DNA from: a virus
Taxonomy: Duplodnaviria > Heunggongvirae > Uroviricota > Caudoviricetes
DNA length: 12,534 nucleotides
Direction: 5' to 3' (one strand)
Virus record (IMG/VR): IMGVR_UViG_2600254997_000018
Of the stretch, positions 126 to 12,534 are shown in pieces (position 1 is the stretch's first letter; each line of letters begins with the position of its first letter). Under the pieces are notes generated by a model. It did not search any database. It was given only the letters and a program-made list of their open reading frames with translations, and was not told the origin of the DNA. The position numbers were made by a program, and so were the translations under genes.

Positions 126-872
126 TTACTTCACAACCCTCATATTGCTGACATTTGGACGCCAGCTATCCCAGTTAAACGTCACCCATCGACCACCGTT
201 CATGGTCATGCGGTCCATAATCCTCTCACCAAGAAGTGTACTCATTGCGGCATGATTCAGGTTTGTTAACATCCCGACACTGCACAGTGATGCTGTCCGG
301 CGATCAATTATCTGGTGTAATACCACCTGCTCGTTTTTCGTCTCACGCTGAACGCCTATTTCATCCAGGACCAGCAAATCAACCCCGCAAAGCTCCTGTA
401 AAAATTTTTCCCCGGACTGGCCGTTGTCGTAGCTGTCATGCAACACACTCATGACGTCAGACACGGTGACGATAATCACGCTGCTCCCCTTCGCCATCAG
501 CCGGTTGCCCATCGCCGCTGCAAGGTGATTTTTCCCGGTGCCGGTTTTACCGCTGAACACAAAATTCGTGCACCCGGTCATCAGTTCGTCAGCGATGGAT
601 TTTGCCTGGCTCAGCGCGTGTTTTTGCCCGTCGTTCTGCACCTGATAATTCGCAAACGAGCATTTGCTGTGCAGAGGCTGGATGCCCGAACGATTCAGGA
701 TTTTTTCCACCCGCAACTGGCGATTCTGGCGGTTAATCTCCTCGCTGCGTTTTCGTCCTTCAGCAAGCTGCCATTCCCGCCACTCCTCCACCGTCCGGTA
801 CGGTGGAACCGCCCCCTGTGGTGCAAGTCTGCGAATACGTTCAAGAACCCCGGCTGCCGCAATGTTTTTCAT
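126..872 (-). CDS. DnaC-like replicative helicase loader (prophage-encoded, IstB-like AAA+ ATPase)
   Basis: 248-aa ORF with Walker A GKTGTGKNHLAAA and Walker B LLVLDEIG. Recalled close similarity along the whole length to E. coli DnaC and to Rac YdaV. GGGGG Shine-Dalgarno upstream of the ATG at 872. Confidence 0.9.
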   Translation of the reverse strand: MKNIAAAGVLERIRRLAPQGAVPPYRTVEEWREWQLAEGRKRSEEINRQNRQLRVEKILNRSGIQPLHSKCSFANYQVQNDGQKHALSQAKSIADELMTGCTNFVFSGKTGTGKNHLAAAMGNRLMAKGSSVIIVTVSDVMSVLHDSYDNGQSGEKFLQELCGVDLLVLDEIGVQRETKNEQVVLHQIIDRRTASLCSVGMLTNLNHAAMSTLLGERIMDRMTMNGGRWVTFNWDSWRPNVSNMRVVK

Positions 873-1355
873 GCCACGTCACCCCCTGAATCCAGGCGGT
901 ATTTCAGTGTCCGGTTCAGAAATGTGATTTACGCAACGCTGCGCGGGCGAACGCCCCAGGCGGATAACCAGTTCATCCCATTTTTCCCGGAGTTTTGCCG
1001 GACTCATGATGTGTTTTTACCCAGAACGAATCCCGCTGGACACGCCCAAACATTTCACAAATCTGCCGGTGACTACGTCCATCCAGCATACGCATCATGC
1101 GCACATCATTCGCCCAGGTCGTCCAGTTAGGTTCTCTGGGGCGTGACACCTCACCATCATCACTGGCGGCCTGTTCATACAACGCCACAACCCGTCCCCA
1201 AATCCACTGCGCACAGGTTCGACATCCTCACGGGTACCCCACTGTCGCTTCGGTACATTCCAGGTATGCGCATCCGGGTGTTTCTCCAGAAATCGCTCAA
1301 CTGGTGATGATTGTTTTTCGTCCGGCAGTGAAACGTCCGGACAAGAAGATCTTTT

Positions 1356-1507
1356 ATCTTGACGGATCAGGTTTTGATACTGACGGATCGGGGTCAATCA
1401 TCGCCCCCCTAATCGGCAGTTTTTTATCAACCGTTGATCCATCAAAATTTGACGGGTCAACCGTTGAGGGGTCAATATTTGACGGGTCAACTGTTAACGG
1501 GTCATTT
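1356..1507. repeat. Iteron-like direct and inverted repeats; putative prophage replication origin inside the initiator gene
   Basis: Core GACGG(G/A)TCA recurs at least 6 times. Two near-identical 30-bp tandem units at 1448-1477 and 1478-1507, two ~21-bp units at 1359-1400, and an AT-rich stretch follows at 1505-1545. Layout resembles lambda ori within gene O. Confidence 0.6.
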
Positions 1508-1768
1508 TTTGTCCGGGCTAATTTTTCTTTTCGGTTTATATGCCTCACGCGCCGCAGTTGCAGCTGCTTCGAGTTTTTCCACATTAAGCCGATAGATATT
1601 GCTTACGTTACGCCCACCGACCTTACGCTCTTCCTTCGTCAGCCAGCCCTCTTTCGCCAGTTCTGCAATAGCAGATTTAACGGTGGATTCACTTCTTGCA
1701 CCGATCTGACGCCGGATAGTTTCAATGGCAGGCCATGACACGCCCTCGTCATTGCTGTAGTCTAGCAA
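1502..1768 (-). CDS. Helix-turn-helix N-terminal segment of a phage replication initiator (O/YdaU-like), apparently truncated
   Basis: 88-aa ORF with HTH-like stretch AIETIRRQIGARSESTVKSAIAELAKEGWL. It starts on TTG with weak Shine-Dalgarno and contains no Met, and it ends at a stop just past a T6 run (1505-1510) inside the iteron array, so it looks like one piece of a longer broken gene. Confidence 0.5.
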   Translation of the reverse strand: MLDYSNDEGVSWPAIETIRRQIGARSESTVKSAIAELAKEGWLTKEERKVGGRNVSNIYRLNVEKLEAAATAAREAYKPKRKISPDKK

Positions 1769-1875
1769 GACGGGCCATAACCGCCACCCTGGATAAGATC
1801 ATGCCGGTGAAGGCGCACCCTTCCCAGACAAGACCATGAAGCTTGCTGCTCATAAAACCCCCGAACACCGTGCTT

Positions 1876-2301
1876 TTAGTGCATCACCACAGCATTCCCT
1901 GCCGGGCCGCCGCGATTCATCTGGTCATACAAAACAACCGCTGACGCAACAAAATCATCGACATCCTTCACCAGCCGATCCCTCCGTTCGACAATCTCAC
2001 GGTAATATTCAGAACTGTGGCTGCGCATACGGGCCACCAGCAGAGGCGGCATTGCCTTTTCGATCGCCGGTAACAGAGCCTGCATTTTTTCAACAGCATC
2101 AGGGGTGTCTTTATCCAGCCAACGGAAAATTTTCTGGGTATTACGAGCCAGGGCTTCCGGATGGCTGTCGTCGTACAGTTCCGGGAACGTCATCCCCAGT
2201 TCGAAATAAGTCCGGGCTATTTCAGCTGCAGGAACTTTCTCACCATCAGGATATGCCCAGGCATTCATCGCCATGCGGATGTGCTCATGTTTGATTTTCA
2301 T
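1876..2301 (-). CDS. ydaT: YdaT-like prophage protein (occupies the CII-like position)
   Basis: 141-aa ORF starting MKIKHEHI, immediately downstream of and overlapping the ydaS-like gene by 17 nt, as in Rac ydaS-ydaT. Assignment is from recalled similarity and synteny. Confidence 0.75.
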   Translation of the reverse strand: MKIKHEHIRMAMNAWAYPDGEKVPAAEIARTYFELGMTFPELYDDSHPEALARNTQKIFRWLDKDTPDAVEKMQALLPAIEKAMPPLLVARMRSHSSEYYREIVERRDRLVKDVDDFVASAVVLYDQMNRGGPAGNAVVMH

Positions 2302-2608
2302 GAATCATTTGCCTCTTGATGCTTCGGGTATGATCGTTTTCGTCATTTGGTTGCTTCATCGACATATTCTGCGAATAACATGACGAGCGTCGTAAGTATG
2401 TCCAATCAACATCAGGACGAAGTTCTTCACACAGGACACCACCTTTTGTTGCTCGTTCAATCGCAGGACATCTCTCAGCAGGCAACTGACGTACACCTTT
2501 GATCCATTGATTTACGCTTGGAGGAGATACACCTAAAAGCCTAGCCATTGCTGATTGCCCACCGACAACAGCACAAGCTCGTTTGAATGAATAGTTATCT
2601 TTTTTCAT
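2285..2608 (-). CDS. ydaS: YdaS-like Cro-type HTH DNA-binding protein
   Basis: Sequence MKKDNYSFKRACAVVGGQSAMARLLGVSPPSVNQWIKGVRQLPAERCPAIERA closely matches recalled Rac YdaS. Start placed at ATG 2608 (GGAG Shine-Dalgarno 8 nt upstream) rather than the track's GTG at 2629. Divergent from the repressor gene. Confidence 0.8.
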   Translation of the reverse strand: MKKDNYSFKRACAVVGGQSAMARLLGVSPPSVNQWIKGVRQLPAERCPAIERATKGGVLCEELRPDVDWTYLRRSSCYSQNMSMKQPNDENDHTRSIKRQMIHENQT

Positions 2609-2629
2609 CGAATGAACTCCAAAAAACAC

Positions 2630-2732
2630 ACAATAATATTAGGCTTAGCCTAATGTGATTGTCAATAGGCTATGCCTAACGATTCGAGAGTAGGGATTGC
2701 CTAACGCGATGCGCATAGGAGACTATTAAGCA
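2630..2732. promoter_or_regulatory. Divergent promoter/operator region between the ydaS-like and repressor genes
   Basis: Three operator-like sites about 26 bp apart: perfect 17-bp palindrome ATTAGGCTTAGCCTAAT (2638-2654), TAGGC-TAT-GCCTA (2666-2678), TAGGG-ATT-GCCTA (2691-2703). AGGAG Shine-Dalgarno at 2716-2720 before the repressor ATG at 2733. Confidence 0.5.
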
Positions 2733-3209
2733 ATGCTTAGTGGTAAAGACTTAGGCCGAGCGATAGAGCAGGCCATTAACAAAAAAATTGCATCAGGAGC
2801 CGTCAAATCAAAGGCGGAAATCGCACGTCATTTCAAAGTCCAACCACCATCAATCCATGACTGGATTAAGAAAGGTTCGATAAGTAAAGACAAACTTCCA
2901 GAACTATGGCGTTTCTTTTCTGATGTGGTTGGTCCAGAGCATTGGGGGCTTAACGAATACCCCATACCAACCCCATCCACTTCAGATACAAAAAGTGAAC
3001 TTTTAGACATAAACAGCCTTTATCAAGCCGCCTCTGATGAAAAAAGAGCAATTGTGGCTTTCCTCTTATCTGGAAATGCTACGGAGCCTAGTTGGGTTGA
3101 TCATGACGTTCGCGCCTACATTGCCGCAATGGAAATGAAGGTAGCTAACTATCTGAAAAATCAAGAATCAAAACGGAAAAGCCAGAACATCACCAAGACA
3201 GGAACTTAA
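2733..3209 (+). CDS. racR: RacR-like prophage repressor (HTH, no recognisable S24 peptidase/LexA-type domain)
   Basis: 158-aa ORF (same length as Rac RacR) with HTH-like stretch SKAEIARHFKVQPPSIHDWIKKGSIS. Divergent from ydaS/ydaT-like genes as in Rac. Identity from synteny, length and recalled similarity, not a search. Confidence 0.65.
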   Translation: MLSGKDLGRAIEQAINKKIASGAVKSKAEIARHFKVQPPSIHDWIKKGSISKDKLPELWRFFSDVVGPEHWGLNEYPIPTPSTSDTKSELLDINSLYQAASDEKRAIVAFLLSGNATEPSWVDHDVRAYIAAMEMKVANYLKNQESKRKSQNITKTGT

Positions 3210-3283
3210 ACTTATATGGTACGACGGGAAATTCCTAGTTCCCGTTAGTTAACTCCTACTACCTCTCCCACAAACCATCACCT

Positions 3284-3346
3284 ATTAGGTCGCACCCAAA
3301 TCATTAGGCGCAGCCTATTGACAGGCAATTAGGCATTTCCTATAGT
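3284..3346 (+). promoter_or_regulatory. Sigma70-like promoter (TTGACA-17-TATAGT) with flanking and embedded TTAGGC operator-like sites; putative promoter of the DUF1391-dicF-dicB operon
   Basis: -35 TTGACA 3318-3323, 17-bp spacer, -10 TATAGT 3341-3346. Palindrome TAGGC-GCA-GCCTA at 3305-3317 abuts the -35, ATTAGGC at 3328-3334 sits in the spacer, and ATTAGG also occurs at 3284-3289. Confidence 0.5.
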
Positions 3347-3527: not shown

Positions 3528-3680
3528 ATGGATACTATCGAGCTTGGCAACAACGAATCTCTGGTATGTGGCGTGTTTCCCAATCAGGACGGCACGTTTA
3601 CCGCGATGACGTATACCAAAAGTAAAACGTTTAAAACCGAAGCTGCCGCGCATCGCTGGTTAGCCAGAAACGCTAACTGA
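3528..3680 (+). CDS. ydfA: DUF1391 small protein (YdfA/YdaF-like)
   Basis: 50-aa product MDTIELGNNESLVCGVFPNQDGTFTAMTYTKSKTFKTE closely matches recalled Qin YdfA. GAGG Shine-Dalgarno 7-8 nt upstream of ATG 3528. The track's 79-aa ORF from 3441 is an in-frame upstream extension. Confidence 0.7.
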   Translation: MDTIELGNNESLVCGVFPNQDGTFTAMTYTKSKTFKTEAAAHRWLARNAN

Positions 3681-3942: not shown

Positions 3943-3995
3943 TTTCTGGTGACGTTTGGCGGTATCAGTTTTACTCCGTGGCTGCTCTGCCGCCC
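3943..3995 (+). ncRNA. dicF: DicF small RNA homolog (Hfq-dependent ftsZ-targeting sRNA of Qin-type prophages)
   Basis: TTTCTGGTGACGTTTGGCGGTATCAGTTTTACTCCGTGGCTGCTCTGCCGCCC differs at one position (A to G) from the 53-nt K-12 DicF as I recall it. A T5 run follows at 3996-4000. It lies upstream of the dicB-like gene, as in Qin. Confidence 0.85.
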
Positions 3996-4169
3996 TTTTT
4001 AAAGTGAATTTTGTGATGCGGTGAATGCGGCTATGCGCACGCGGAACAGTTAAAACCAAAAACAGTGTTATGGGTGGATTCTCTGTATCCGGCGTTAATT
4101 GTTAACTGGTTAACGTCACCTGGAGGCACCAGGCACTGCATCACAAAATTCATTGTTGAGGACGCGATA

Positions 4170-4358
4170 ATGGAAACGTTATTACCAAACGTTAATACGT
4201 CTGAAGGTTGTTTTGATATTGGTGTTCTGCTCAGTAACCGGGAGTTTACTGAAGATGCCATTAAGATGAGAAAATATGAACCTTATCTTCTCAATGATAA
4301 TTCCATACTTTCCAGAATTGCCCTTCTTGAACTTGGTATTATCGGAGAACAGCAGTGA
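4170..4358 (+). CDS. dicB: DicB-like cell-division inhibitor (MinC-activating small protein)
   Basis: 62-aa product METLLPNVNTSEGCFDIGV... matches K-12 DicB in length and N-terminus as recalled. GAGGA Shine-Dalgarno upstream of ATG 4170. The track ORF 4065-4358 is an upstream in-frame extension. Confidence 0.8.
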   Translation: METLLPNVNTSEGCFDIGVLLSNREFTEDAIKMRKYEPYLLNDNSILSRIALLELGIIGEQQ

Positions 4359-4543
4359 CTTCAGCGTTTGCACTGGTGATGACCGTTTTTCTTATAACGG
4401 GTGAGCCACAAAATGTGATTACCGGAATTTATGCCAGTAAAGAATCCAGCCTCCAGGCAAGAGACGAGCAAAAAATTTCTGGTGAATGCCTACCGGTAAA
4501 AAAAGTATCGCTGTACCTGAATAACGAAACACCGGCTGGATAA
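4355..4543 (+). CDS. Small membrane protein, YdfD-like (Qin lysis-protein position)
   Basis: 62-aa ORF with an N-terminal hydrophobic helix (SAFALVMTVFLITG). GTG start overlaps the dicB-like stop (GTGA) with GGAG Shine-Dalgarno 7 nt upstream; alternative ATG at 4379. Assignment by synteny (gene after dicB in Qin is ydfD). Confidence 0.55.
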   Translation: MTSAFALVMTVFLITGEPQNVITGIYASKESSLQARDEQKISGECLPVKKVSLYLNNETPAG

Positions 4544-4638
4544 CCCGCCAGCTATATTAACGCCATACCAACGGATTAAAAATGCCAGCAATGGCAGGGA
4601 TTCGTTCACCCTGAAATCTGTAATGAGGTTAAAACACA

Positions 4639-7110
4639 ATGAGTAAAATCTTTATTTGCGCTGCTATTCCTGACGAACAGGCCATAAAAGAAGATAGCGC
4701 TGTTGCGGTGGCCACTGCCATTGAAGCCGGTGATGAGCGTCGCGCACGCGCAAAATTTCACTGGCAATTTCTGGAGCAATTCCCGGCAGCTCAGGACTGC
4801 GCTTATAAATTTATTGTCTGCGAGGATAAACCCGGCATACCCCGCCCTGCCCTCGATTCCTGGGATACCGAATATATGCAGGAAAACCGCTGGGATGAGG
4901 AGTCAGCTTCCTTTGTACCGGTCGAACCAGAATCCGATCCGATGAACGTCAATTTTGACAAGCTGTCCCCTGAAGTACAGAACGCAGTCCTAGTTAAATT
5001 CGACACATGCGAAAACATCACCGTTGATATGGTGATTAGCGCACAGGAATTACTACAGGAAGACATGGCAACATTCGGCGGACATATCGTTGAAGCGTTG
5101 ATGAAAATGCCAGAAGTTAACGCCATGTATCCTGAACTTAAACTGCATGCCATCGGGTGGGTTAAGCATAAATGTGAGCCTGGCGCTAAATGGCCTGAAA
5201 TTCAGGCAGAGATGCGCATCTGGAAAAAACGTCGCGAAGGTGAACGCAAGGAAACCGGAAAATACACGTCTGTTGTTGATCTCACCCGCGCCAGAGTCAA
5301 CCAACAGAACACTGAAAACGCTGCTGAAAAAACCGGGGCTGTCACTGTTGCCATTCGCCGCGAATACAAACAGACATGGAAAACACTCGACAATGAACTG
5401 GCCTGCGCCCTCTGGCCCGGTGATGTGGATGCAGGAAACATTGACGGTACCATCCATCGCTGGGCGACAAATGAGGTTATCGACAAGGATCGCGAAGACT
5501 GGAAGCGTATCTCAGCATCAATGCGCAAACAGCCCGAAGCACTTGGCTATGACCGTCAGACTATTTTTGGCCTTGTTCGCGAACGTCCGATCGATATTCA
5601 CAAAGATCCCGTTGCACTGAACAAATATATCAGTGAATACCTGACGACAAAGGGCGTGTTTGAACATGAAGAAACAGACCAGAGCTCTACTGATGCTCTC
5701 CAGCCGTCAGCAGCACAAACTGCTCCAGTGGAGACGGCAGAATCCGATACTCAAAAAAATGAAATCCTGGTGGAAGCTGAACCATCTGTAGAGCGTGAAG
5801 GACCATTTTATTTCGTCTTTACCGATAAGGGCGGGGAAAAATACGGCAGGGCAAACAAACTTTCTGGTCTGGACAAGGCGCTGGCTGCCGGCGGTACCGA
5901 AATCTCAAAAGAAGAATATTTTGCCCGAAAAAATGGCACATACACGGGCTTACCGCAAAATGTGGATACCGCTGAAGATTCCGAACAATCAGAGCCGGTA
6001 AAAGTTACCGCTGACGAAGTAAACAAAATTATGCAGGCAGCCAATATCAGCCAGCCTGACGCCGATAAATTGCTTGCTGCATCACGTGGTGAATTTGTTG
6101 AAGGGATTAGCGACCCGAATGATCCGAAATGGGTGAAAGGGATCCAGAGTCGCGACGCTGAGGACCAGAATCAGCCCAACGTGAAACAAAATGAGCCAGA
6201 AGCGGAACAAAACAGCCCGGATACGCAACAAAACGGGCCAGAAGAACAACAACCAGAACCAGCAGTGCAACAGGAACTGGAAAAAGTTTGCACCGCATGC
6301 GGTCAGACCGGTGGCGGCAACTGTCCTGACTGTGGTGCGGTGATGGGGAACGCAACCTACCTGGAAACATTCGATGAAGAGAATCAGGCTGAAGCTCAGA
6401 AAAATGATCCGGAGGAAATGGAAGGCACTGAACATCTGCACAAGGAGAACACTGGCAGCGATCAGTATCACGCCAGCGATAATAAAACTGGCGAAACAGC
6501 AAATCCCTTAATTAAAGTGAACGGTCATCATGAAATCTCATCCACCAGCAGGTTGTGGCACCATCTGATGATTGACCTTGAAACAATGGGAAAAAATCCT
6601 GATGCGCCAATAAACGCTATAGCCGGTAAGTTTTTTGATCCGGCAACCGGAGAGATGGGGCCAGAATTCAGCAAAACTATCGATCTGGAAACCGCAGGTG
6701 GGGTCATCGATCGGGACACCATTAAGTGGTGGCTGAAACAGTCACGCGAAGCACAATCCTCCATTCTGACCGATGAAATCACGTTGGATGATGCACTGCT
6801 GCAATTCCGGGAATTTATCGACGAAAACTCCGGTGAATTTTTTGTTCAGGTCTGGGGTAACGGTGCAACTTTCGACAACGTGATTTTACGCCGTTCATAT
6901 GAACGGCAGGGGATCCCCTGCCCGTGGCGTTACACCAATGATCGCGATGTAAGAACGATGGTTGCTCTGGGACTGGTGATGGATTTCGACGCAAGAACGA
7001 CTATTCCATTCGAAGGTGAACGCCATAACGCCCTGCACGATGCGCGTTACCAGGCAAAATACGTTTCAGCCATCTGGCAAAAACTGCTCCCGAGTCAGGC
7101 TGATTTTTAA
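4639..7110 (+). CDS. Prophage exonuclease, 823 aa: RecE/exodeoxyribonuclease-VIII-like N-terminal region, CxxC-x7-CxxC zinc ribbon, C-terminal DnaQ-like (DEDDh) 3'-5' exonuclease domain
   Basis: Intact 2.47-kb ORF with GAGG Shine-Dalgarno. Motif DKLLAASRGEFVEGISDPNDPKWVKGIQ recalls RecE. C-terminal ~190 aa carry DEDDh motifs (MIDLETMG, WGNGATFDNVIL, HNALHDARYQ). Zinc ribbon encoded at 6289-6333, acidic/Gln-rich linker at ~6160-6280. Confidence 0.85.
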   Translation: MSKIFICAAIPDEQAIKEDSAVAVATAIEAGDERRARAKFHWQFLEQFPAAQDCAYKFIVCEDKPGIPRPALDSWDTEYMQENRWDEESASFVPVEPESDPMNVNFDKLSPEVQNAVLVKFDTCENITVDMVISAQELLQEDMATFGGHIVEALMKMPEVNAMYPELKLHAIGWVKHKCEPGAKWPEIQAEMRIWKKRREGERKETGKYTSVVDLTRARVNQQNTENAAEKTGAVTVAIRREYKQTWKTLDNELACALWPGDVDAGNIDGTIHRWATNEVIDKDREDWKRISASMRKQPEALGYDRQTIFGLVRERPIDIHKDPVALNKYISEYLTTKGVFEHEETDQSSTDALQPSAAQTAPVETAESDTQKNEILVEAEPSVEREGPFYFVFTDKGGEKYGRANKLSGLDKALAAGGTEISKEEYFARKNGTYTGLPQNVDTAEDSEQSEPVKVTADEVNKIMQAANISQPDADKLLAASRGEFVEGISDPNDPKWVKGIQSRDAEDQNQPNVKQNEPEAEQNSPDTQQNGPEEQQPEPAVQQELEKVCTACGQTGGGNCPDCGAVMGNATYLETFDEENQAEAQKNDPEEMEGTEHLHKENTGSDQYHASDNKTGETANPLIKVNGHHEISSTSRLWHHLMIDLETMGKNPDAPINAIAGKFFDPATGEMGPEFSKTIDLETAGGVIDRDTIKWWLKQSREAQSSILTDEITLDDALLQFREFIDENSGEFFVQVWGNGATFDNVILRRSYERQGIPCPWRYTNDRDVRTMVALGLVMDFDARTTIPFEGERHNALHDARYQAKYVSAIWQKLLPSQADF

Positions 7111-7168: not shown

Positions 7169-7372
7169 ATGAGCAGCATATTTTTAACCGAAAATGAATT
7201 GCAAACGTTAACGGGCTGCAAATATGCAAGCCACCAGCGCAACTGGTTAATAAAAAATGGGCTTCCGTTCTATACCAATCGTAGTGGAAAACCGATCGTC
7301 AGTCGGGAACTGTTTACCTGTATAAAAACTTTACCACCACGTGAGGCTGAACCTGATTTCGGTGCGATCTAA
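7169..7372 (+). CDS. Excisionase-like protein (Xis, DUF4224-type)
   Basis: 67-aa ORF directly upstream of the integrase. Its stop TAA overlaps the integrase ATG (TAATG at 7370-7374), the classic xis-int arrangement. Confidence 0.6.
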   Translation: MSSIFLTENELQTLTGCKYASHQRNWLIKNGLPFYTNRSGKPIVSRELFTCIKTLPPREAEPDFGAI

Positions 7373-8397
7373 TGGGAAGACGAAGGAAAAATCCCGAACA
7401 CGAAAAATTACCGCCAAAGGTATACCCCAATAAATATAGTTATGTATGGAAACCGACATCCAGAGAATCTGTAACCTTAACTGCAATCGAGGATGGTTTA
7501 GCCGCATTATGGAAAAAGTATGAAGAAACGGTTAACCATCGCGATCGCGCAATGACATTTGGGCGTTTGTGGGAAAAATTTCTCGCCAGCGCCTATTACA
7601 GCGAGCTTAGTCCTAGAACTCAAAAAGATTATCTGCAACATCAAAAAAAGCTGCTGGCCGTATTCGGTAAGGTGCTGGCCGATTCTGTAAAACCAGAGCA
7701 CATCAGACGATACATGGACAAAAGAGGCGAGCAGAGTAAAACGCAGGCAAACCATGAAAAAAGCAGTATGTCGCGCGTTTATAGTTGGGGGTATGAGCGA
7801 GGATACGTGAAGGCTAACCCATGTGCAGGTGTAAGTAAATTCAAGGCCAAAAACCGCGAACGATATGTAACCGACAAAGAATACCAGGCAGTATTAAGCG
7901 TTGCACCTCTTCCTGTTTTTATCGCAATGGAAATTGCCTATCTGTGTGCAGCGAGGGTTTCCGATGTGTTATCGCTGAAATGGGAGCAGATTGGAAACGA
8001 CGGGATCTTTATCCAGCAAGGGAAAACAGGGAAAAAACAGATAAAAGCATGGAGTCCACGATTACAGGCGGCGATCGAAAAAGCAAAACAGTTACCAACA
8101 TCCGCCTATGTAATCAGCAATCAATACGGCAACCGATATATGTACAAAGGCTTTAACGAAATGTGGGTAGAAGCAAGAAATCACGCAGGCAAAATTTCAG
8201 GTATTTTAACCGACTTCACCTTTCATGATCTGAAGGCGAAAGGAATTTCAGACTATGAAGGAAGCAGCCGGGATAAGCAACTTTTCTCTGGTCACAAAAC
8301 CGAAGGGCAAGTGCTAATCTATGACAGGAAGGTTAAAGTTTCACCAACACTTGATGTCCCGTTACCTGAAAATATTCCAAGAAAATATTCCAAGTAA
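7372..8397 (+). CDS. Phage integrase, tyrosine site-specific recombinase
   Basis: 341-aa ORF whose C-terminal region carries residues consistent with the tyrosine-recombinase catalytic set (R in ARVSD, H/K in HDLKAKG, Y in LIYDRK). It ends 52 bp from the 3' end of tRNA-Ser. Confidence 0.9.
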   Translation: MGRRRKNPEHEKLPPKVYPNKYSYVWKPTSRESVTLTAIEDGLAALWKKYEETVNHRDRAMTFGRLWEKFLASAYYSELSPRTQKDYLQHQKKLLAVFGKVLADSVKPEHIRRYMDKRGEQSKTQANHEKSSMSRVYSWGYERGYVKANPCAGVSKFKAKNRERYVTDKEYQAVLSVAPLPVFIAMEIAYLCAARVSDVLSLKWEQIGNDGIFIQQGKTGKKQIKAWSPRLQAAIEKAKQLPTSAYVISNQYGNRYMYKGFNEMWVEARNHAGKISGILTDFTFHDLKAKGISDYEGSSRDKQLFSGHKTEGQVLIYDRKVKVSPTLDVPLPENIPRKYSK

Positions 8398-8449: not shown

Positions 8450-8539
8450 TGGCGGAGAGAGGGGGATTTGAACCCCCGGTGGAGTTGCCCCCACTCCGGT
8501 TTTCGAGACCGGTCCGTTCAGCCGCTCCGGCATCTCTCC
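8450..8539 (-). tRNA. serU: tRNA-Ser (anticodon CGA)
   Basis: Reverse complement reads GGAGAGATGCCGGAGCGGCTGAACGGACCGGTCTCGAAAACCGGAG...TCTCTCCGCCA: 7-bp acceptor stem, anticodon loop CU-CGA-AA, long variable arm, encoded CCA. Matches E. coli serU as recalled. Confidence 0.9.
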
Positions 8540-9726: not shown

Positions 9727-9892
9727 GCTATGAACGCCATCACCATTTTCCCCTCGATTATAAAACTTGAGTAATTCAGTAGTCTCCCCTCTTGCAACTC
9801 ACACCCAAAACTGCTTAACGAAAAGTTATTAATTTTCAATCATATTGCTATCAGGATCTACTTTTTTTCGCTGTGCTAGAAAGGGCGCATTT

Positions 9893-10838
9893 ATGTTAGC
9901 TCGTTCAGGGAAGGTAACCGTGAAGGTTACTGGCAACTCAAGCACCGCCCATGTTGCTAGCTTTATCGCTGATCCATCGACTATCGCCGCCACCAACAGT
10001 GATTTAAGTACCTTAAAGGCAACGGTTGAGGATGGCAGTGGTAACCTGATCGAAGGTCTCACTGTGTACTTCGCCTTAAAAAGCGGCTCCACCACATTAA
10101 CGTCATTAACAGCAGTGACCGATCAAAACGGAATCGCGACAATAAGCGTGAAAGGAGCGATAACGGGGAGCGTCACTGTAAGCACAGTCACAAGCAAACA
10201 GTAGATATATCGCTAGTGGCAGGCCCAGCAGACGCCTCGCAGTCCATCCTTAAGAACAACCAGTCATCACTGAAAGGGGACTTTACCGATAGTGCTGAGC
10301 TACATCTTGTTCTGCACGATATATCAGGCAATCCGATCAAAGTTTCTTAAGGGATGGAATTTGTGCAATCAGGTACAAACGTGCCCTATATGAAAATTAG
10401 CGCAATTGATTACAGTCAAAATATCAACGGTGATTACAAAGCTACTGTTACAGGAGGCGGAGAGGGTATCGCAACGCTGATCCCCGTATTGAATGGTGTT
10501 CATCAGACGGGCCTGAGTACCACGATAGAATTCATTAGCGCGGAAACCAGACCAATGACCGGTACAGTGTCAGTGAATGGTGCAAACCTACCGACAGCTT
10601 CATTCCCTTCGCAGGGATTTACCGGGGCGTATTATCAGTTGAATAATGACAGCTTTGCACCAGGAAAAACGGCGGCTGATTATTTGTTTCAAGCTCGGCC
10701 TCCTGGGTAGGCGTTGATGCTACTGGTAAAGTGACATTCAAAAATGACGGTGATAGCAATACTGTAATAATCACAGCGCCCCCAAGATCCGGTGGTGCTA
10801 TTTACCAAACAGTTCCGCATGAATCGCGTTCGGTGTGA
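9893..10838 (+). pseudogene. yeeJ: 3' remnant of a yeeJ-like inverse-autotransporter adhesin gene (bacterial Ig-like domains), frameshifted
   Basis: Ig-like-domain-type sequence (VTVKVTGNSSTAHVASFIADPSTIAATN..., ...ISGNPIKVS, EFVQSGTNVPY...) continues across at least three frames (shifts near 10200, 10350, 10700). Only ~1 kb lies between asnT and the next gene, versus ~7 kb for intact yeeJ. Gene name is from K-12 synteny. Confidence 0.45.
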
Positions 10839-10965: not shown

Positions 10966-11196
10966 TCAAATTCTCGCCAAAACACTTTTTAATGCCTTTG
11001 CGAATTCATCCAGACTTATATTGTCAATTTTTTGCCCAACGATGACTGACTCCGAAACATCGGCCATTGCGGGCCATCGCGTTTTGTAATCAGCATAAAT
11101 TGCAACAACAGAGGTATTATAGGCACTTGCCATATGTAATATTGAGGTGTCAGGAGTTATTGCAATATAAGCATCTTTTATGATTGCTGCTGAACG
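10966..11196 (-). pseudogene. C-terminal fragment of a glycosyltransferase family 9 (heptosyltransferase-like, yeeL-like) gene, cut by IS10
   Basis: About 76 codons (ITPDTSILHMASAYNTSVVAIYADYKTRWP...) resemble GT9 C-terminal regions. The track ORF's first 13 codons are IS10 end sequence, so the reading frame enters the IS at 11197. Confidence 0.45.
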
Positions 11197-11209
11197 CTGA
11201 GAGATCCCC

Positions 11210-12419
11210 TCATAATTTCCCCAAAGCGTAACCATGTGTGAATAAATTTTGAGCTAGTAGGGTTGCAGCCACGAGTAAGTCTTCCCTTGTTATTGTGTAG
11301 CCAGAATGCCGCAAAACTTCCATGCCTAAGCGAACTGTTGAGAGTACGTTTCGATTTCTGACTGTGTTAGCCTGGAAGTGCTTAGTCCCAACCTTGTTTC
11401 TGAGCATGAACGCCCGCAAGCCAACATGTTAGTTGAAGCATCAGGGCGATTAGCAGCATGATATCAAAACGCTACTGAGCTGCCCGTTCGGCTATGGCGT
11501 AGGCCTAGCCCGTAGGCAGGACTTTTCAAGTCTCGGAAGGTTTCTTCAATCTGCATTCGCTTCGAATAGATATTAACAAGTTGTTTGGGTGTTCGAATTT
11601 CAACAGGTAAGTTAGTTGCTAGAACCATGGCTCCTTTGCCGACGCTGAGTAGATTTTAGGTGACGGGTGGTGACAATGAGTCCGTGTCGAGCGCTGATTT
11701 TTTCGGCCTTTAGAGCGAGATTTATACAATAGAATTTGGCATGAGATTGGATTGCTTTTAGTCAGCCTCTTATAGCCTAAAGTCTTTGAGTGACTAGATG
11801 ACATATCATGTAAGTTGCTGATAGGTTTCCAGTTTTCCGCTCCTAGGTCTGCATATTGTACTTTTCCTCTTACTCGACTTAACCAGTACCAACCCAGCTT
11901 CTCAACGGATTTATACCATGGCACTTTAAAGCCAGCATCACTGACAATGAGCGGTGTGGTGTTACTCGGTAGAATGCTCGCAAGGTCGGCTAGAAATTGG
12001 TCATGAGCTTTCTTTGAACATTGCTCTGAAAGCGGGAACGCTTTCTCATAAAGAGTAACAGAACGACCGTGTAGTGCGACTGAAGCTCGCAATACCATAA
12101 GTCGTTTTTGCTCACGAATATCAGACCAGTCAACAAGTACAATGGGCATCGTATTGCCCGAACAGATAAAGCTAGCATGCCAACGGTATACAGCGAGTCG
12201 CTCTTTGTGGAGGTGACGATTACCTAACAATCGGTCGATTCGTTTGATGTTATGTTTTGTTCTCGCTTTGGTTGGCAGGTTACGGCCAAGTTCGGTAAGA
12301 GTGAGAGTTTTACAGTCAAGTAATGCGTGGCAAGCCAACGTTAAGCTGTTGAGTCGTTTTAAGTGTAATTCGGGGCAGAATTGGTAAAGAGAGTCGTGTA
12401 AAATATCGAGTTCGCACAT
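11210..12419 (-). pseudogene. IS10 transposase, frame-disrupted (N-terminal 266 aa intact, middle and C-terminal parts in other frames)
   Basis: ORF 11619-12419 matches IS10 Tnp from MCELDILHDSLYQF... but stops at ...AKEPWF*. The expected continuation VLATNLPVEIRTPKQ... is in another frame, and the C-terminal ...HFQANTVRNRNVLSTV...GYALGKL is in ORF 11210-11419. At least three indels within ~200 bp. Confidence 0.8.
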
Positions 12420-12480
12420 CTTGTTGTCTGATTATTGATTTTTCGCGAAACCATTTGATCATATGACAAGATGTGTATCT
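12412..12480 (+). ncRNA. IS10 antisense RNA-OUT (predicted from position in IS10)
   Basis: Established IS10 layout puts pOUT about 115 bp from the outside end, transcribing outward. The window shows the expected stem: CGCACATCTTGTTGTC (12413-12428) pairs with GACAAGATGTG (12465-12475). GATC at 12467-12470. Confidence 0.5.
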
Positions 12481-12534
12481 ACCTTAACTTAATGATTTTT
12501 ATCAAAATCATTAGGGGATTCATCAGGCGTAGCG

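What the first reader, a model, noticed from the sequence alone, without database searches (positions are those of the whole stretch)
1876..3209. Immunity module with a repressor lacking an autocleavage domain next to YdaS/YdaT-like genes
The 158-aa repressor shows an HTH but no recognisable S24 peptidase/LexA-type domain, so induction is unlikely to be RecA-mediated. In K-12 Rac, loss of RacR is lethal because ydaS/ydaT become derepressed (established knowledge). If the same holds here, the host cannot easily lose or inactivate the repressor, which would explain retention of this otherwise defective prophage.
Basis: partly seen in the sequence, partly recalled or inferred. Interest (0 to 1): 0.45.

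Follow-up and report, generated by a model that had tools for sequence, protein, structure and literature searches.

The report
Rac-type prophage immunity switch (RacR/YdaS/YdaT)
This is the already well-studied on/off control region of a Rac-like E. coli prophage: a repressor without a self-cleaving domain (RacR) facing Cro-like and CII-like regulators, so it is ordinary, and the idea that it "addicts" the host to the prophage is only partly supported here.

Summary
Window 1876-3209 encodes a 158-aa RacR (92% identical to K-12 RacR; NCBIfam equivalog), divergent from a YdaS-like Cro and a YdaT-like gene. RacR has no S24 peptidase: no Pfam hit, no Ala-Gly site, and an all-helical AF2 model. 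Structure searches match only lambda-CI-type HTH domains.

The module is the CI/Cro/CII-type immunity switch of a lambdoid prophage at tRNA-Ser. RacR operators (TAGGC-N3-GCCTA) lie over the ydaS promoter. A second pair lies over a PL-like promoter feeding a ydfA-dicF-dicB operon. The footprinted YdaT-box spans the ydaT start.

All of this is published: K-12 Rac (2017-2025), CP-933P, and O157 Sakai Sp6, which carries the same module at 98.8% DNA identity. The Sp6 repressor was noted to lack a peptidase domain, and Sp6 excision did not rise with mitomycin C.

The "addiction explains retention" reading is weaker:
- YdaT here is the CP-933P allele (134/140 identical to PDB 8bt1), reported non-toxic.
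- Whole-prophage excision is a known escape route.
- dicB/dicF could equally make the repressor essential.
- "Defective" rests on indels that may be assembly errors.

Small additions: the OL-type operators, and relatives with the same N-terminal domain and operators fused to an S24 peptidase.

The parts
2733..3209 (+). racR: CI-analogue immunity repressor, 158 aa. N-terminal lambda-CI-like HTH domain (res 1-73), low-confidence linker (74-92), helical C-terminal domain (93-152). No S24 peptidase.
2285..2608 (-). ydaS-like gene: Cro analogue, 107 aa. Overlaps the ydaT start by 17 nt.
   Evidence: Pfam YdaS_toxin 103.7 bits and P22_Cro 35.1 bits; PDB 3bd1 Cro E 2.8e-10; 84.7% identical to K-12 YdaS; GGAG Shine-Dalgarno plus ATG
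1876..2301 (-). ydaT-like gene: CII functional analogue, CP-933P allele, 141 aa
   Evidence: Pfam YdaT_toxin 40.9 bits; PHROG 163 CII-like activator 2e-47; 134/140 identical to PDB 8bt1; only 30.6% identical to K-12 YdaT
2291..2308 (-). YdaT-box ATGATTCATGAAAATCAA spanning the ydaT start codon. It marks the boundary between Rac-like DNA and the CP-933P-like ydaT body.
   Evidence: Exact match to the 18-mer footprinted in K-12 Rac (PMC11879457); similarity to K-12 Rac DNA starts at window 2278
2636..2665 (-). PydaS (PR analogue): -35 TTGACA, 18-nt spacer, -10 TAATAT
   Evidence: Promoter scan 10/12; same hexamers as the mapped K-12 PydaS (PMC9638921)
2640..2652 (.). RacR operator OR site 1, TAGGCTTAGCCTA, over the PydaS -10/spacer
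   Evidence: 5 sites at <=1 mismatch in the window against 0.2 expected; published consensus T/A-TAGGC-n3-GCCTA-T/A (PMC9638921); half-sites conserved in K-12 while the spacers differ
2666..2678 (.). RacR operator OR site 2, TAGGCTATGCCTA, next to the PydaS -35
2691..2703 (.). RacR operator OR site 3, TAGGGATTGCCTA (1 mismatch)
2727..2739 (.). Weaker fourth site, TAAGCAATGCTTA (2 mismatches), spanning the racR ATG
   Evidence: the K-12 literature describes an operator over the racR start codon and four inverted repeats
3305..3317 (.). RacR operator OL-type site 1, TAGGCGCAGCCTA (perfect), abutting the -35 of the PL-like promoter
   Evidence: an equivalent pair 25 bp apart lies downstream of the repressor gene in K-12 Rac, Sp6, 14EC017 and the S24-type relatives
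3330..3342 (.). RacR operator OL-type site 2, TAGGCATTTCCTA (1 mismatch), over the spacer/-10 of the PL-like promoter
3318..3346 (+). PL-like promoter: TTGACA, 17-nt spacer, TATAGT (11/12)
   Evidence: Function is inferred, not shown.
3528..3680 (+). ydfA-like DUF1391 gene, first gene of the left operon
   Evidence: Pfam DUF1391 97.5 bits; RefSeq coordinates transferred from L001
3944..3995 (+). DicF small RNA (ftsZ antisense regulator) with its own terminator at 3978-3993
   Evidence: Rfam RF00039 75 bits, gathering score 48; terminator scan
4170..4358 (+). dicB cell-division inhibitor, 62 aa
   Evidence: Pfam DicB 127.4 bits; NCBIfam CellDivInhibDicB 109.5 bits, cutoff 100
4355..4543 (+). 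ydfD-like DUF1482 gene
   Evidence: PHROG 1092 2.3e-32; Pfam DUF1482 in relatives
4639..7110 (+). YdfE-like exonuclease, 823 aa (Rv2179c-like 3'-5' exonuclease domain)
7169..8397 (+). Excisionase (7169-7372) and tyrosine integrase (7372-8397), next to the tRNA-Ser att site (8450-8539, minus strand)
   Evidence: RefSeq flags the identical integrase sequence in 14EC017 as frameshifted; other gene callers give 341 aa.
879..1853 (-). O-like replication initiator gene downstream of ydaT, broken here by 6 extra bases at 5 sites
126..872 (-). DnaC-like helicase loader, intact, 80% identical to K-12 YdaV

Best explanation
Window 1876-3209 is the immunity (lysis/lysogeny) switch of a lambdoid, Rac-immunity-type prophage integrated at tRNA-Ser(cga) beside mtfA.

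RacR is the CI analogue. It has a lambda-CI-like HTH N-terminal domain and a small helical C-terminal domain. K-12 work reports that this C-terminal domain mediates oligomerisation. RacR would bind TAGGC-N3-GCCTA operators at two places:
- An OR-like cluster: three good sites plus a weaker one over its own ATG. This cluster covers the strong leftward ydaS promoter and the racR promoters.
- An OL-like pair over a near-consensus promoter just downstream of racR.

Binding would silence the ydaS-ydaT-O-dnaC operon on one side. On the other side it would silence the ydfA-dicF-dicB-ydfD-exonuclease-xis-int operon.

YdaS is the Cro analogue. YdaT is the CII analogue: a tetrameric POU-like HTH protein that binds the YdaT-box over its own start codon and, in K-12, activates a reverse promoter inside ydaS that boosts racR.

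RacR has no S24 domain or Ala-Gly site, so the switch is not flipped by RecA-stimulated autocleavage. Derepression would be spontaneous or bistable, or triggered by an unknown factor.

The module is a mosaic. racR, ydaS, the operators and the YdaT-box are Rac-like. The ydaT body is the CP-933P allele, with the joint at the YdaT-box.

Shown here: gene identities, domain content, operator and promoter sequences and their conservation. Taken from the literature on near-identical or homologous modules: DNA binding, repression, octamer formation, no increase with mitomycin C. Inferred: control of the dicBF-type operon by the OL pair.
For: Identities and domains.

No S24 domain.

Operators:
- Five sites at <=1 mismatch in the window against 0.2 expected, with 0 of 200 shuffles reaching 5.
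- The same layout occurs in K-12 Rac, 14EC017, Sakai Sp6 and relatives in other genera.
- Half-sites are conserved while the central triplets and spacers differ from K-12.
- The consensus and DNase footprints are published (PMC9638921).

Promoters: PydaS hexamers are identical to the mapped K-12 promoter. The PL-like promoter scores 11/12 and is flanked and overlapped by the OL pair.

YdaT-box: identical to the footprinted K-12 18-mer. CP-933P YdaT binds and activates through this box (PMC11879457; PMC9986795).

Left operon content. K-12 transcriptomics under RacR depletion show 40-70-fold induction of genes on both sides of racR.

Sp6 carries the same module. Its repressor lacks a peptidase domain and its circular form did not increase with MMC.

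racR is full-length in all 1086 complete E. coli genomes that have it, and Rac-type ydaS occurs in 1085-1090 genomes.
Against: - No experiment was done on this exact sequence.
- RacR binding to the OL-type pair, and transcription of dicF/dicB from the PL-like promoter, are inferred from sequence only. I did not find them described in the papers I read.
- The -10 of the main leaderless racR promoter differs from K-12 (GAGACT against GAGAAT), so racR expression strength here is unknown.
- K-12 work found that YdaS does not repress racR, unlike lambda Cro, so the Cro analogy is imperfect.
- The DicF terminator (3978-3993) lies between the promoter and dicB, so read-through to dicB is assumed by analogy with Qin.
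Confidence: 0.85

Rival explanations
1. One reading: a toxin-repressor addiction module. RacR exists to silence the toxins YdaS and YdaT, the host cannot lose racR, and this explains why a defective prophage is retained.
For: - In K-12, racR can only be deleted together with ydaS-ydaT, and knock-down is lethal (PMC5700373, PMC5700377).
- YdaS here is 84.7% identical to K-12 YdaS, which one laboratory found lethal on induction.
- racR is never partial in 1086 genomes and its count matches that of ydaS.
Against: - YdaT here is the CP-933P allele, with no detectable toxicity (PMC8630535).
- Another laboratory found YdaS non-toxic and attributed all toxicity to Rac-type YdaT.
- Co-occurrence is equally expected for a CI/Cro cassette that shares operators.
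- The whole Rac can be deleted, and RacR depletion selects for excision. xis and int are present here. So the module protects racR relative to its targets, not the prophage.
- The genes are divergent and regulated transcriptionally, not a protein-protein toxin-antitoxin pair (PMC5917428).
- Evidence that this prophage is defective is doubtful.
Confidence: 0.25
2. The repressor is essential in this lysogen mainly because it silences the PL-type operon carrying DicF and DicB (and the YdfD-like lysis protein). This would mirror DicA in Qin, rather than depend on ydaS/ydaT.
For: - An OL-type operator pair overlaps an 11/12 promoter directly upstream of ydfA-dicF-dicB-ydfD.
- DicF and DicB are toxic division inhibitors repressed by the immunity repressor DicA from a PL-like promoter in Qin (PMC10448788).
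- ydaT here is the non-toxic allele.
Against: - Nothing is experimentally tested for this arrangement.
- In K-12 Rac the equivalent left operon carries kilR, yet racR deletion was not rescued by removing kilR and was rescued by removing ydaST.
- The DicF terminator may limit dicB expression.
Confidence: 0.35
3. The switch is still coupled to the SOS response indirectly, through a LexA-controlled antirepressor encoded elsewhere in the prophage or in another prophage (Gifsy or Qin-Rem style).
For: - Precedents exist for short, non-cleavable repressors inactivated by antirepressors: Rem/DicA, and the Rep-Ant structure 5d50, which appears among weak fold hits.
- A LexA-box-like site exists in the late region of a near-identical prophage (L001 11104-11123).
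Against: - No LexA box lies in the window's early region.
- No antirepressor gene is annotated in the closest complete prophage.
- Sp6, with the same module, was not enhanced by mitomycin C.
- The L001 site lies at the start of a methyltransferase gene, not an antirepressor.
Confidence: 0.1
4. The module is an inert remnant: the genes are decaying and no longer regulate anything.
For: The neighbouring O-like gene is interrupted in this window. Many Rac-like prophages are cryptic.
Against: - All three ORFs, the promoter hexamers, six operator sites and the YdaT-box are intact.
- RacR is 100% identical in other strains and full-length in 1086/1086 genomes.
- The same module in Sp6 supports excision and lysogenisation of K-12.
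Confidence: 0.05

Closest known systems
racR-ydaS-ydaT immunity region of the Rac prophage, E. coli K-12
   Same: - RacR has the same length and is 91.8% identical; YdaS is 84.7% identical.
- The operator consensus, number and spacing are the same, including the pair downstream of racR.
- PydaS hexamers and the YdaT-box are identical.
- A DnaC-like gene lies downstream (80% identical).
   Different: - YdaT is only 30.6% identical to the K-12 protein, i.e. a different allele.
- YdaS has a longer C-terminal tail that overlaps ydaT.
- The replication initiator is unrelated to YdaU.
- The left operon is Qin-type (ydfA-dicF-dicB-ydfD-ydfE-like) instead of ydaFG-sieB-kilR-racC-recET.
- The integration site is tRNA-Ser/mtfA rather than ttcA.
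- The -10 of PracR3 differs (GAGACT against GAGAAT).
Immunity region of O157:H7 Sakai prophage Sp6 (ECs_1506-1508)
   Same: 98.8% DNA identity over window 1938-3300, with the same RacR/YdaS/CP-933P-type YdaT combination and the same operators. Its repressor was already described as lacking the peptidase domain, and Sp6 excision did not increase with MMC.
   Different: Sp6 is integrated at potC, has different replication genes and a degraded left arm (short exonuclease fragment, no dicB annotated).
paaR2 / ydaS / ydaT immunity region of CP-933P (= Sakai Sp12)
   Same: YdaT is 134/140 identical (PDB 8bt1). The architecture is the same: a repressor lacking a peptidase motif, divergent from Cro-like and CII-like genes. 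It behaves as a bistable switch and its YdaT is not toxic.
   Different: The repressor is PaaR2, not RacR, with different operators. It is followed by the paaA2-parE2 toxin-antitoxin pair, which is absent here.
dicA-dicC / dicBF region of Qin, E. coli K-12
   Same: A short immunity repressor without an Ala-Gly site controls a PL-like promoter that drives ydfA..dicF-dicB-ydfD-ydfE. DicF, DicB and the DUF1391, DUF1482 and YdfE-like genes are all present here.
   Different: The repressor/Cro pair and the operators are RacR/YdaS type, not DicA/DicC. No Rem-like antirepressor was seen in the window.
Lambda cI-cro-cII with OR/OL
   Same: - Divergent repressor and Cro genes with multiple operators over PR and PRM.
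- A second operator set over PL.
- CII acts on a promoter reading back towards the repressor gene.
- The leaderless repressor transcript and repressor octamers are reported for K-12 RacR.
   Different: - No S24 C-terminal domain, so no RecA-stimulated cleavage.
- YdaT is a POU-like tetramer that binds an inverted repeat, not a CII fold binding a direct repeat.
- YdaS reportedly does not repress racR.
- OR and OL are only about 0.6 kb apart.
S24-peptidase repressors sharing the RacR N-terminal domain (P0101, P0102, P0114; e.g. Pectobacterium)
   Same: - Residues 1-73 are 70-86% identical up to the ...EHWGL boundary.
- They have the same TAGGC-N3-GCCTA operator layout: an OR cluster including one site over the ATG, plus a downstream pair 25 bp apart.
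- They face a divergent YdaS-like Cro gene.
   Different: - The C-terminal domain is a Pfam Peptidase_S24 domain (68-76 bits) with GDSM and an Ala-Gly.
- The CII position holds a Phage_CP76 protein rather than YdaT.
- The replication genes are a helicase and a primase.

Membership tests
RacR repressor family (NCBIfam NF049929, equivalog) | Whole-protein score above the curated cutoff | tested here: met
   246.8 bits against a cutoff of 200, covering residues 1-145; 91.8% identical to K-12 RacR
RacR repressor family (NCBIfam NF049929, equivalog) | Two-domain, all-helical architecture: five-helix HTH N-terminal domain, linker, helical C-terminal domain | tested here: met
   AF2 model helices 4-21, 27-33, 38-47, 52-61, 68-71 | linker 74-92 | 93-99, 102-112, 124-152. 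This matches the published description.
RacR repressor family (NCBIfam NF049929, equivalog) | Cognate operators T/A-TAGGC-n3-GCCTA-T/A in the racR-ydaS intergenic region | tested here: met
   Sites at 2640, 2666, 2691 and (2 mismatches) 2727. Actual binding is not testable here.
RacR repressor family (NCBIfam NF049929, equivalog) | Represses ydaS-ydaT and is essential in the lysogen | not testable with these tools
   Known only for K-12
LexA/lambda-CI type autocleaving repressors (Peptidase S24) | C-terminal Peptidase_S24 domain with a Ser/Lys dyad | tested here: not met
LexA/lambda-CI type autocleaving repressors (Peptidase S24) | Ala-Gly (or Cys-Gly) cleavage site in the linker | tested here: not met
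   Neither dipeptide occurs anywhere in the protein
LexA/lambda-CI type autocleaving repressors (Peptidase S24) | Lambda-repressor-like HTH DNA-binding domain | tested here: met
Cro / YdaS family | Pfam YdaS_toxin or P22_Cro domain above the gathering score | tested here: met
   103.7 bits (cutoff 30) and 35.1 bits (cutoff 30.2); PDB Cro 3bd1 E 2.8e-10
Cro / YdaS family | First gene of the operon divergent from the repressor, with its promoter under the repressor's operators | tested here: met
YdaT family (CII functional analogue) | Pfam YdaT_toxin domain; POU-like HTH plus a C-terminal tetramerisation helix | tested here: met
   40.9 bits (cutoff 21); 134/140 identical to crystal structure 8bt1
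YdaT family (CII functional analogue) | Cognate inverted repeat (A/T)TGATT-N6-AATCAA at the ydaS/ydaT junction | tested here: met
   ATGATTCATGAAAATCAA at 2308-2291, identical to the footprinted K-12 box
   The literature reports the Rac allele as toxic and the CP-933P allele, the one present here, as not toxic
Type II toxin-antitoxin system | Toxin and antitoxin co-transcribed in one operon, with neutralisation by protein-protein contact | tested here: not met
   racR is divergent from ydaS-ydaT and acts through operators. The protein contact itself is not testable here. The literature argues against a toxin-antitoxin reading.
Qin-type dicBF operon | DicF RNA and DicB protein in one unit with ydfA-, ydfD- and ydfE-like genes | tested here: met
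   Rfam DicF 75 bits (gathering score 48); DicB Pfam 127.4 bits and NCBIfam 109.5 bits (cutoff 100); DUF1391, DUF1482 and YdfE_N/C
Qin-type dicBF operon | Transcription from a PL-like promoter repressed by the immunity repressor | tested here: inconclusive
   A promoter-like site (11/12) overlaps two RacR-type operators. No expression data exist.

The most novel reading that the evidence does not exclude
The RacR N-terminal domain and its TAGGC-N3-GCCTA operator set (OR cluster plus OL pair) form a swappable immunity cassette. In nature it is paired either with an S24 autocleavage domain, which would be SOS-inducible, or with the small helical RacR domain.

The helical domain would then be an alternative induction sensor, the target of an unknown antirepressor or signal. 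RacR from a resident cryptic prophage could give immunity to S24-type relatives or block their induction.

In this particular prophage, repressor essentiality would come from the RacR-controlled dicF-dicB operon rather than from ydaS/ydaT, because ydaT is the non-toxic CP-933P allele.
Probability: 0.25. Interest if true: 0.4.

Novelty: already known. Interest (0 to 1): 0.15.

Why it matters
The finding adds little. The module, its lack of a peptidase domain, its failure to respond to mitomycin C and the essentiality of its repressor are all published for K-12 Rac and for the near-identical Sakai Sp6 region.

Three points have some value:
- This is a natural hybrid: Rac-type racR and ydaS with the CP-933P-type ydaT. 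About 529 of 5426 complete E. coli genomes carry it. It could settle the published disagreement over whether YdaS or YdaT is the lethal product.
- The OL-type operator pair over a PL-like promoter predicts that the RacR regulon includes dicF and dicB here, and the ydaFG-kilR side in K-12. [quoted passage not shown]
- S24-bearing relatives with the same DNA-binding domain and operators show that the non-cleavable form arose by exchange of the C-terminal domain. This gives a clean pair for studying SOS-independent prophage control.

Tried and rejected
1. Natural racR knock-outs as a test of essentiality. Truncated RacR proteins occur in public assemblies (P0091, 90 aa; P0021, 134 aa) next to intact ydaS/ydaT. 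The lesions are single-base homopolymer changes (C4->C3 at window-equivalent 2960; A6->A5 at 3040). The same contigs carry other homopolymer indels or fragmented neighbouring genes. I treat them as probable sequencing errors, so this test is inconclusive.

3. LexA boxes. None lie in the early region of the window. One LexA-like site sits in the late region of a relative, at a methyltransferase gene. I did not pursue it.

4. Source assembly. An exact-protein look-up with the DnaC-like protein returned many relatives, all with an intact O-like gene. None reproduced the window's indels, so the left part of this particular prophage remains unseen.

5. Is the prophage defective? I compared the window with 14EC017 and with an intact IS10 copy. 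The 9 indels fall only in the O-like gene and IS10, both repeated DNA. Eight are insertions, mostly outside homopolymers, with no substitutions nearby. This looks more like unpolished long-read error than decay, but I could not settle it.

6. The 2026 bioRxiv preprint on racR CRISPRi and Rac excision could not be opened. Only its abstract line was used.

7. I rejected the antisense ORFs in the region (for example 1836-2294 +, 2828-3010 -) as shadows of the annotated genes, with no family support. I did not search them separately.
Full report
**What is there**

The gene order on the minus strand, reading leftward from the switch, is:
- ydaS-like, 2285-2608
- ydaT-like, 1876-2301
- O-like replication initiator, 879-1853
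- dnaC-like, 126-872

On the plus strand, reading rightward, it is:
- racR, 2733-3209
- DUF1391 (ydfA-like)
- DicF RNA, 3944-3995
- dicB, 4170-4358
- DUF1482 (ydfD-like)
- an 823-aa YdfE-like exonuclease
- xis and int

**Checking the observation**

The 158-aa protein is RacR. It scores 246.8 bits on the NCBIfam RacR equivalog model, against a cutoff of 200. It is 91.8% identical to K-12 RacR over the full length.

It has no S24 domain by four independent tests:
- No Pfam family matches the whole protein at E<=0.01. None matches residues 74-158 even at E<=10.
- It has no Ala-Gly, Cys-Gly or GDSM.
- An AlphaFold2 model built on 32 homologues (pLDDT 80.7) is purely helical. It has a five-helix N-terminal domain, a disordered linker (74-92) and three C-terminal helices.

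The neighbours are YdaS-like and YdaT-like:
- YdaS-like matches Pfam YdaS_toxin at 103.7 bits and P22_Cro at 35.1 bits.
- YdaT-like matches Pfam YdaT_toxin at 40.9 bits and PHROG 'CII-like activator' at 2e-47.

YdaS is 84.7% identical to K-12 YdaS, but YdaT is only 30.6% identical to K-12 YdaT. It is 134/140 identical to YdaT of the O157:H7 prophage CP-933P, crystal structure 8bt1.

DNA similarity to K-12 Rac begins at window 2278, at the first codons of ydaT and the YdaT-box. The module is therefore a mosaic. racR, ydaS and the operators are Rac-type, and the ydaT body is CP-933P-type.

The same mosaic occurs in Sakai prophage Sp6 at 98.8% DNA identity. About 529 of 5426 complete E. coli genomes carry it.

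**Regulatory anatomy**

The racR-ydaS intergenic region holds TAGGCTTAGCCTA (2640), TAGGCTATGCCTA (2666) and TAGGGATTGCCTA (2691), spaced 26 and 25 bp apart. A weaker TAAGCAATGCTTA (2727) spans the racR ATG.

In K-12 the half-sites are the same, while the central triplets and the spacers differ. This is the pattern expected of functional operators. It matches the published, footprinted consensus T/A-TAGGC-n3-GCCTA-T/A (PMC9638921).

The ydaS promoter (TTGACA, 18-nt spacer, TAATAT; 2665-2636, minus strand) lies under sites 1 and 2. Its hexamers are those mapped in K-12.

Two more sites lie 96 bp downstream of racR: TAGGCGCAGCCTA (3305) and TAGGCATTTCCTA (3330), again 25 bp apart. They flank and overlap a near-consensus plus-strand promoter (TTGACA, 17-nt spacer, TATAGT; 3318-3346).

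The window holds five sites at <=1 mismatch, against 0.2 expected by chance. The same OR-cluster-plus-OL-pair layout recurs in K-12 Rac, 14EC017, Sp6 and more distant relatives.

I did not find the OL-type pair described in the papers I read. [quoted passage not shown] The pair does fit that paper's report of 40-70-fold induction of genes on both sides of racR when RacR is depleted.

The 18-mer ATGATTCATGAAAATCAA on the minus strand at 2308-2291, across the ydaT start codon, is identical to the footprinted K-12 YdaT-box. It differs by one base from the CP-933P site. Both YdaT alleles bind and activate through it (PMC11879457, PMC9986795).

**How it most likely works**

This is the CI/Cro/CII-type switch of a Rac-immunity lambdoid phage.
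- RacR is reported to be octameric in K-12. It would occupy OR and OL and shut off both early operons.
- YdaS plays the role of Cro.
- YdaT plays the role of CII, feeding back on racR through a reverse promoter inside ydaS.

Without an S24 domain, the switch cannot be thrown by RecA-stimulated autocleavage.

Asadulghani et al. [quoted passage not shown] They found circular Sp6 DNA in untreated cells at levels that did not rise with mitomycin C (PMC2669165).

An indirect SOS route through an antirepressor is not excluded but has little support:
- No LexA box lies in the early region.
- No antirepressor is annotated in the closest prophage.
- Sp6 did not respond to MMC.

**The addiction hypothesis**

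The K-12 premise is correct. racR can only be deleted with ydaS-ydaT removed. Carrying this over to the window is weaker, for six reasons.

1. The laboratories disagree on which product kills. Krishnamurthi et al. say YdaS. The later NAR papers say 'solely' Rac-type YdaT, acting through the host rcsA promoter. The allele present here is the CP-933P one, for which no toxicity was detected.

2. Jobling's letter and later work treat YdaS and YdaT as Cro and CII analogues. Their over-expression is harmful as that of lambda CII is, and they note that any prophage repressor is 'essential' only within its lysogen.

3. Essentiality of racR protects racR, not the prophage. The whole Rac can be deleted, and RacR depletion selects for precise excision. 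xis and int ORFs are present here.

4. In this prophage the OL/PL-type element sits directly upstream of dicF and dicB, two well-known division inhibitors. In Qin they are held off by the short, non-cleavable repressor DicA (PMC10448788). They are at least as plausible a cause of repressor essentiality as ydaS/ydaT. Against this, the analogous kilR in K-12 was not the cause.

5. Comparative counts are compatible with selection on racR. It is full-length in 1086 of 1086 complete genomes that have it, and Rac-type ydaS is in 1085-1090 genomes. A shared-operator cassette inherited as a unit predicts the same counts.

6. 'Otherwise defective' is not established. The only lesion visible in the prophage part of the window is six extra bases at five sites in the O-like gene. 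These are absent from every relative examined.

On the sixth point, the only other indels in the window are in IS10. All nine indels lie in repeated DNA, eight are insertions, most are not in homopolymers, and there are no accompanying substitutions. That looks like residual long-read error in regions that short-read polishing cannot fix. I could not prove this.

**An addition from the homologue search**

The RacR family (45-98% identity) is spread through Enterobacterales. Several relatives keep residues 1-73 at 70-86% identity, up to the ...EHWGL boundary, and continue into a genuine Peptidase_S24 domain (68-76 bits) with GDSM and an Ala-Gly. These are P0101, P0102 and P0114.

Their loci have a divergent YdaS-like Cro and the same TAGGC-N3-GCCTA layout, including the downstream pair. 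Other relatives carry yet other C-terminal domains (P0108, P0111).

So RacR is a C-terminal-domain-swapped member of a repressor lineage that also has SOS-cleavable forms. Its lack of S24 is a clean domain replacement, not divergence beyond recognition.

RacR-type repressors also occur in deposited phage records: Escherichia phage vB_EcoS-683R6 at 90.5% identity and Klebsiella phage KpF5 at 57%.

**Comparison and verdict**

The closest known systems are:
- K-12 Rac racR-ydaST, which has the same repressor, Cro and operators but a different ydaT allele and left operon.
- Sakai Sp6, which has essentially the same module.
- CP-933P, which has the same YdaT but a different repressor.
- Qin dicA/dicBF, which has the same left operon but a different repressor.

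Membership in the RacR, YdaS/Cro and YdaT families is met on every feature I could test. Membership in the S24 autocleaving repressor family fails on its defining features. A type II toxin-antitoxin reading fails on gene organisation.

The finding is real but already known, so interest is low. The residual novelty is modest:
- the predicted OL/PL control of dicBF;
- the S24 and non-S24 domain-swap pairs;
- the use of this natural hybrid to resolve the dispute over YdaS and YdaT toxicity.

Noticed in passing
window 879-1853 (minus strand); inserted bases at 1013, 1218-1219, 1359, 1512, 1764: The O-like replication initiator gene carries six extra bases at five sites compared with all close relatives, which have an intact 322-aa gene. 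There are no substitutions in the same 2.7 kb and most insertions are not in homopolymers. This is either a freshly broken gene or unpolished assembly error in repeated DNA.
   Followed up: partly
window 3944-3995 (+), with dicB at 4170-4358 and a ydfD-like gene at 4355-4543: A DicF small RNA (Rfam 75 bits) and dicB form a Qin-type dicBF operon. Here it sits behind RacR-type operators and a PL-like promoter (3305-3346) instead of the DicA-controlled promoter.
   Followed up: partly
window 3305-3317 and 3330-3342; K-12 Rac L002 5041-5053 and 5066-5078: A conserved pair of RacR-consensus operators lies 25 bp apart downstream of racR, an OL analogue. It is also present in Sp6 and in S24-type relatives. 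I did not find it described in the RacR papers I read.
   Followed up: partly
P0101, P0102, P0114; loci L003-L006 (repressor gene at 4001-4708): Relatives share the RacR N-terminal domain (70-86% identical) and the same operator layout, but carry a true S24 peptidase C-terminal domain. P0108 and P0111 have other C-terminal domains. This is evidence of C-terminal domain swapping on one immunity specificity.
   Followed up: partly
window ~11200-12481 (minus strand); RNA-OUT at 12412-12481 (+): An IS10 (ISVsa5-family) copy is inserted next to a yeeL-like glycosyltransferase fragment (10966-11235). Its transposase is split into three ORFs by two 1-base insertions (11384, 11474) and one deletion (11624) relative to an intact copy. 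The closest complete genomes lack this insertion.
   Followed up: partly
window 9845-10710: Only short Ig-like/invasin-domain ORF fragments of yeeJ remain between tRNA-Asn and the IS10. Relatives differ here: full-length yeeJ, a short 'invasin domain 3' protein, or the yersiniabactin island.
   Followed up: no
window 7372-8397: The integrase ORF is 341 aa with a complete catalytic domain by Pfam. RefSeq nevertheless annotates the identical sequence in 14EC017 as a frameshifted pseudogene. Its functional status is unclear.
   Followed up: no
window 2720-2725: The -10 of the main leaderless racR promoter mapped in K-12 (GAGAAT) reads GAGACT here. The PracR2 region also differs, so racR expression strength may differ from K-12.
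   Followed up: no
L013-L020 (racR-equivalent of window 2960 and 3040): Public assemblies contain racR frameshift alleles (90 aa and 134 aa products) beside intact ydaS/ydaT. Both lesions are homopolymer length changes in contigs that carry other such errors, so they are probably artefacts.
   Followed up: yes
L001 11104-11123 (outside the window, late region of the near-identical prophage in 14EC017): A LexA-box-like sequence, TACTGTAAAAATATCCAGTT, lies at the start of a DNA methyltransferase gene. Any relevance to induction is unknown.
   Followed up: no
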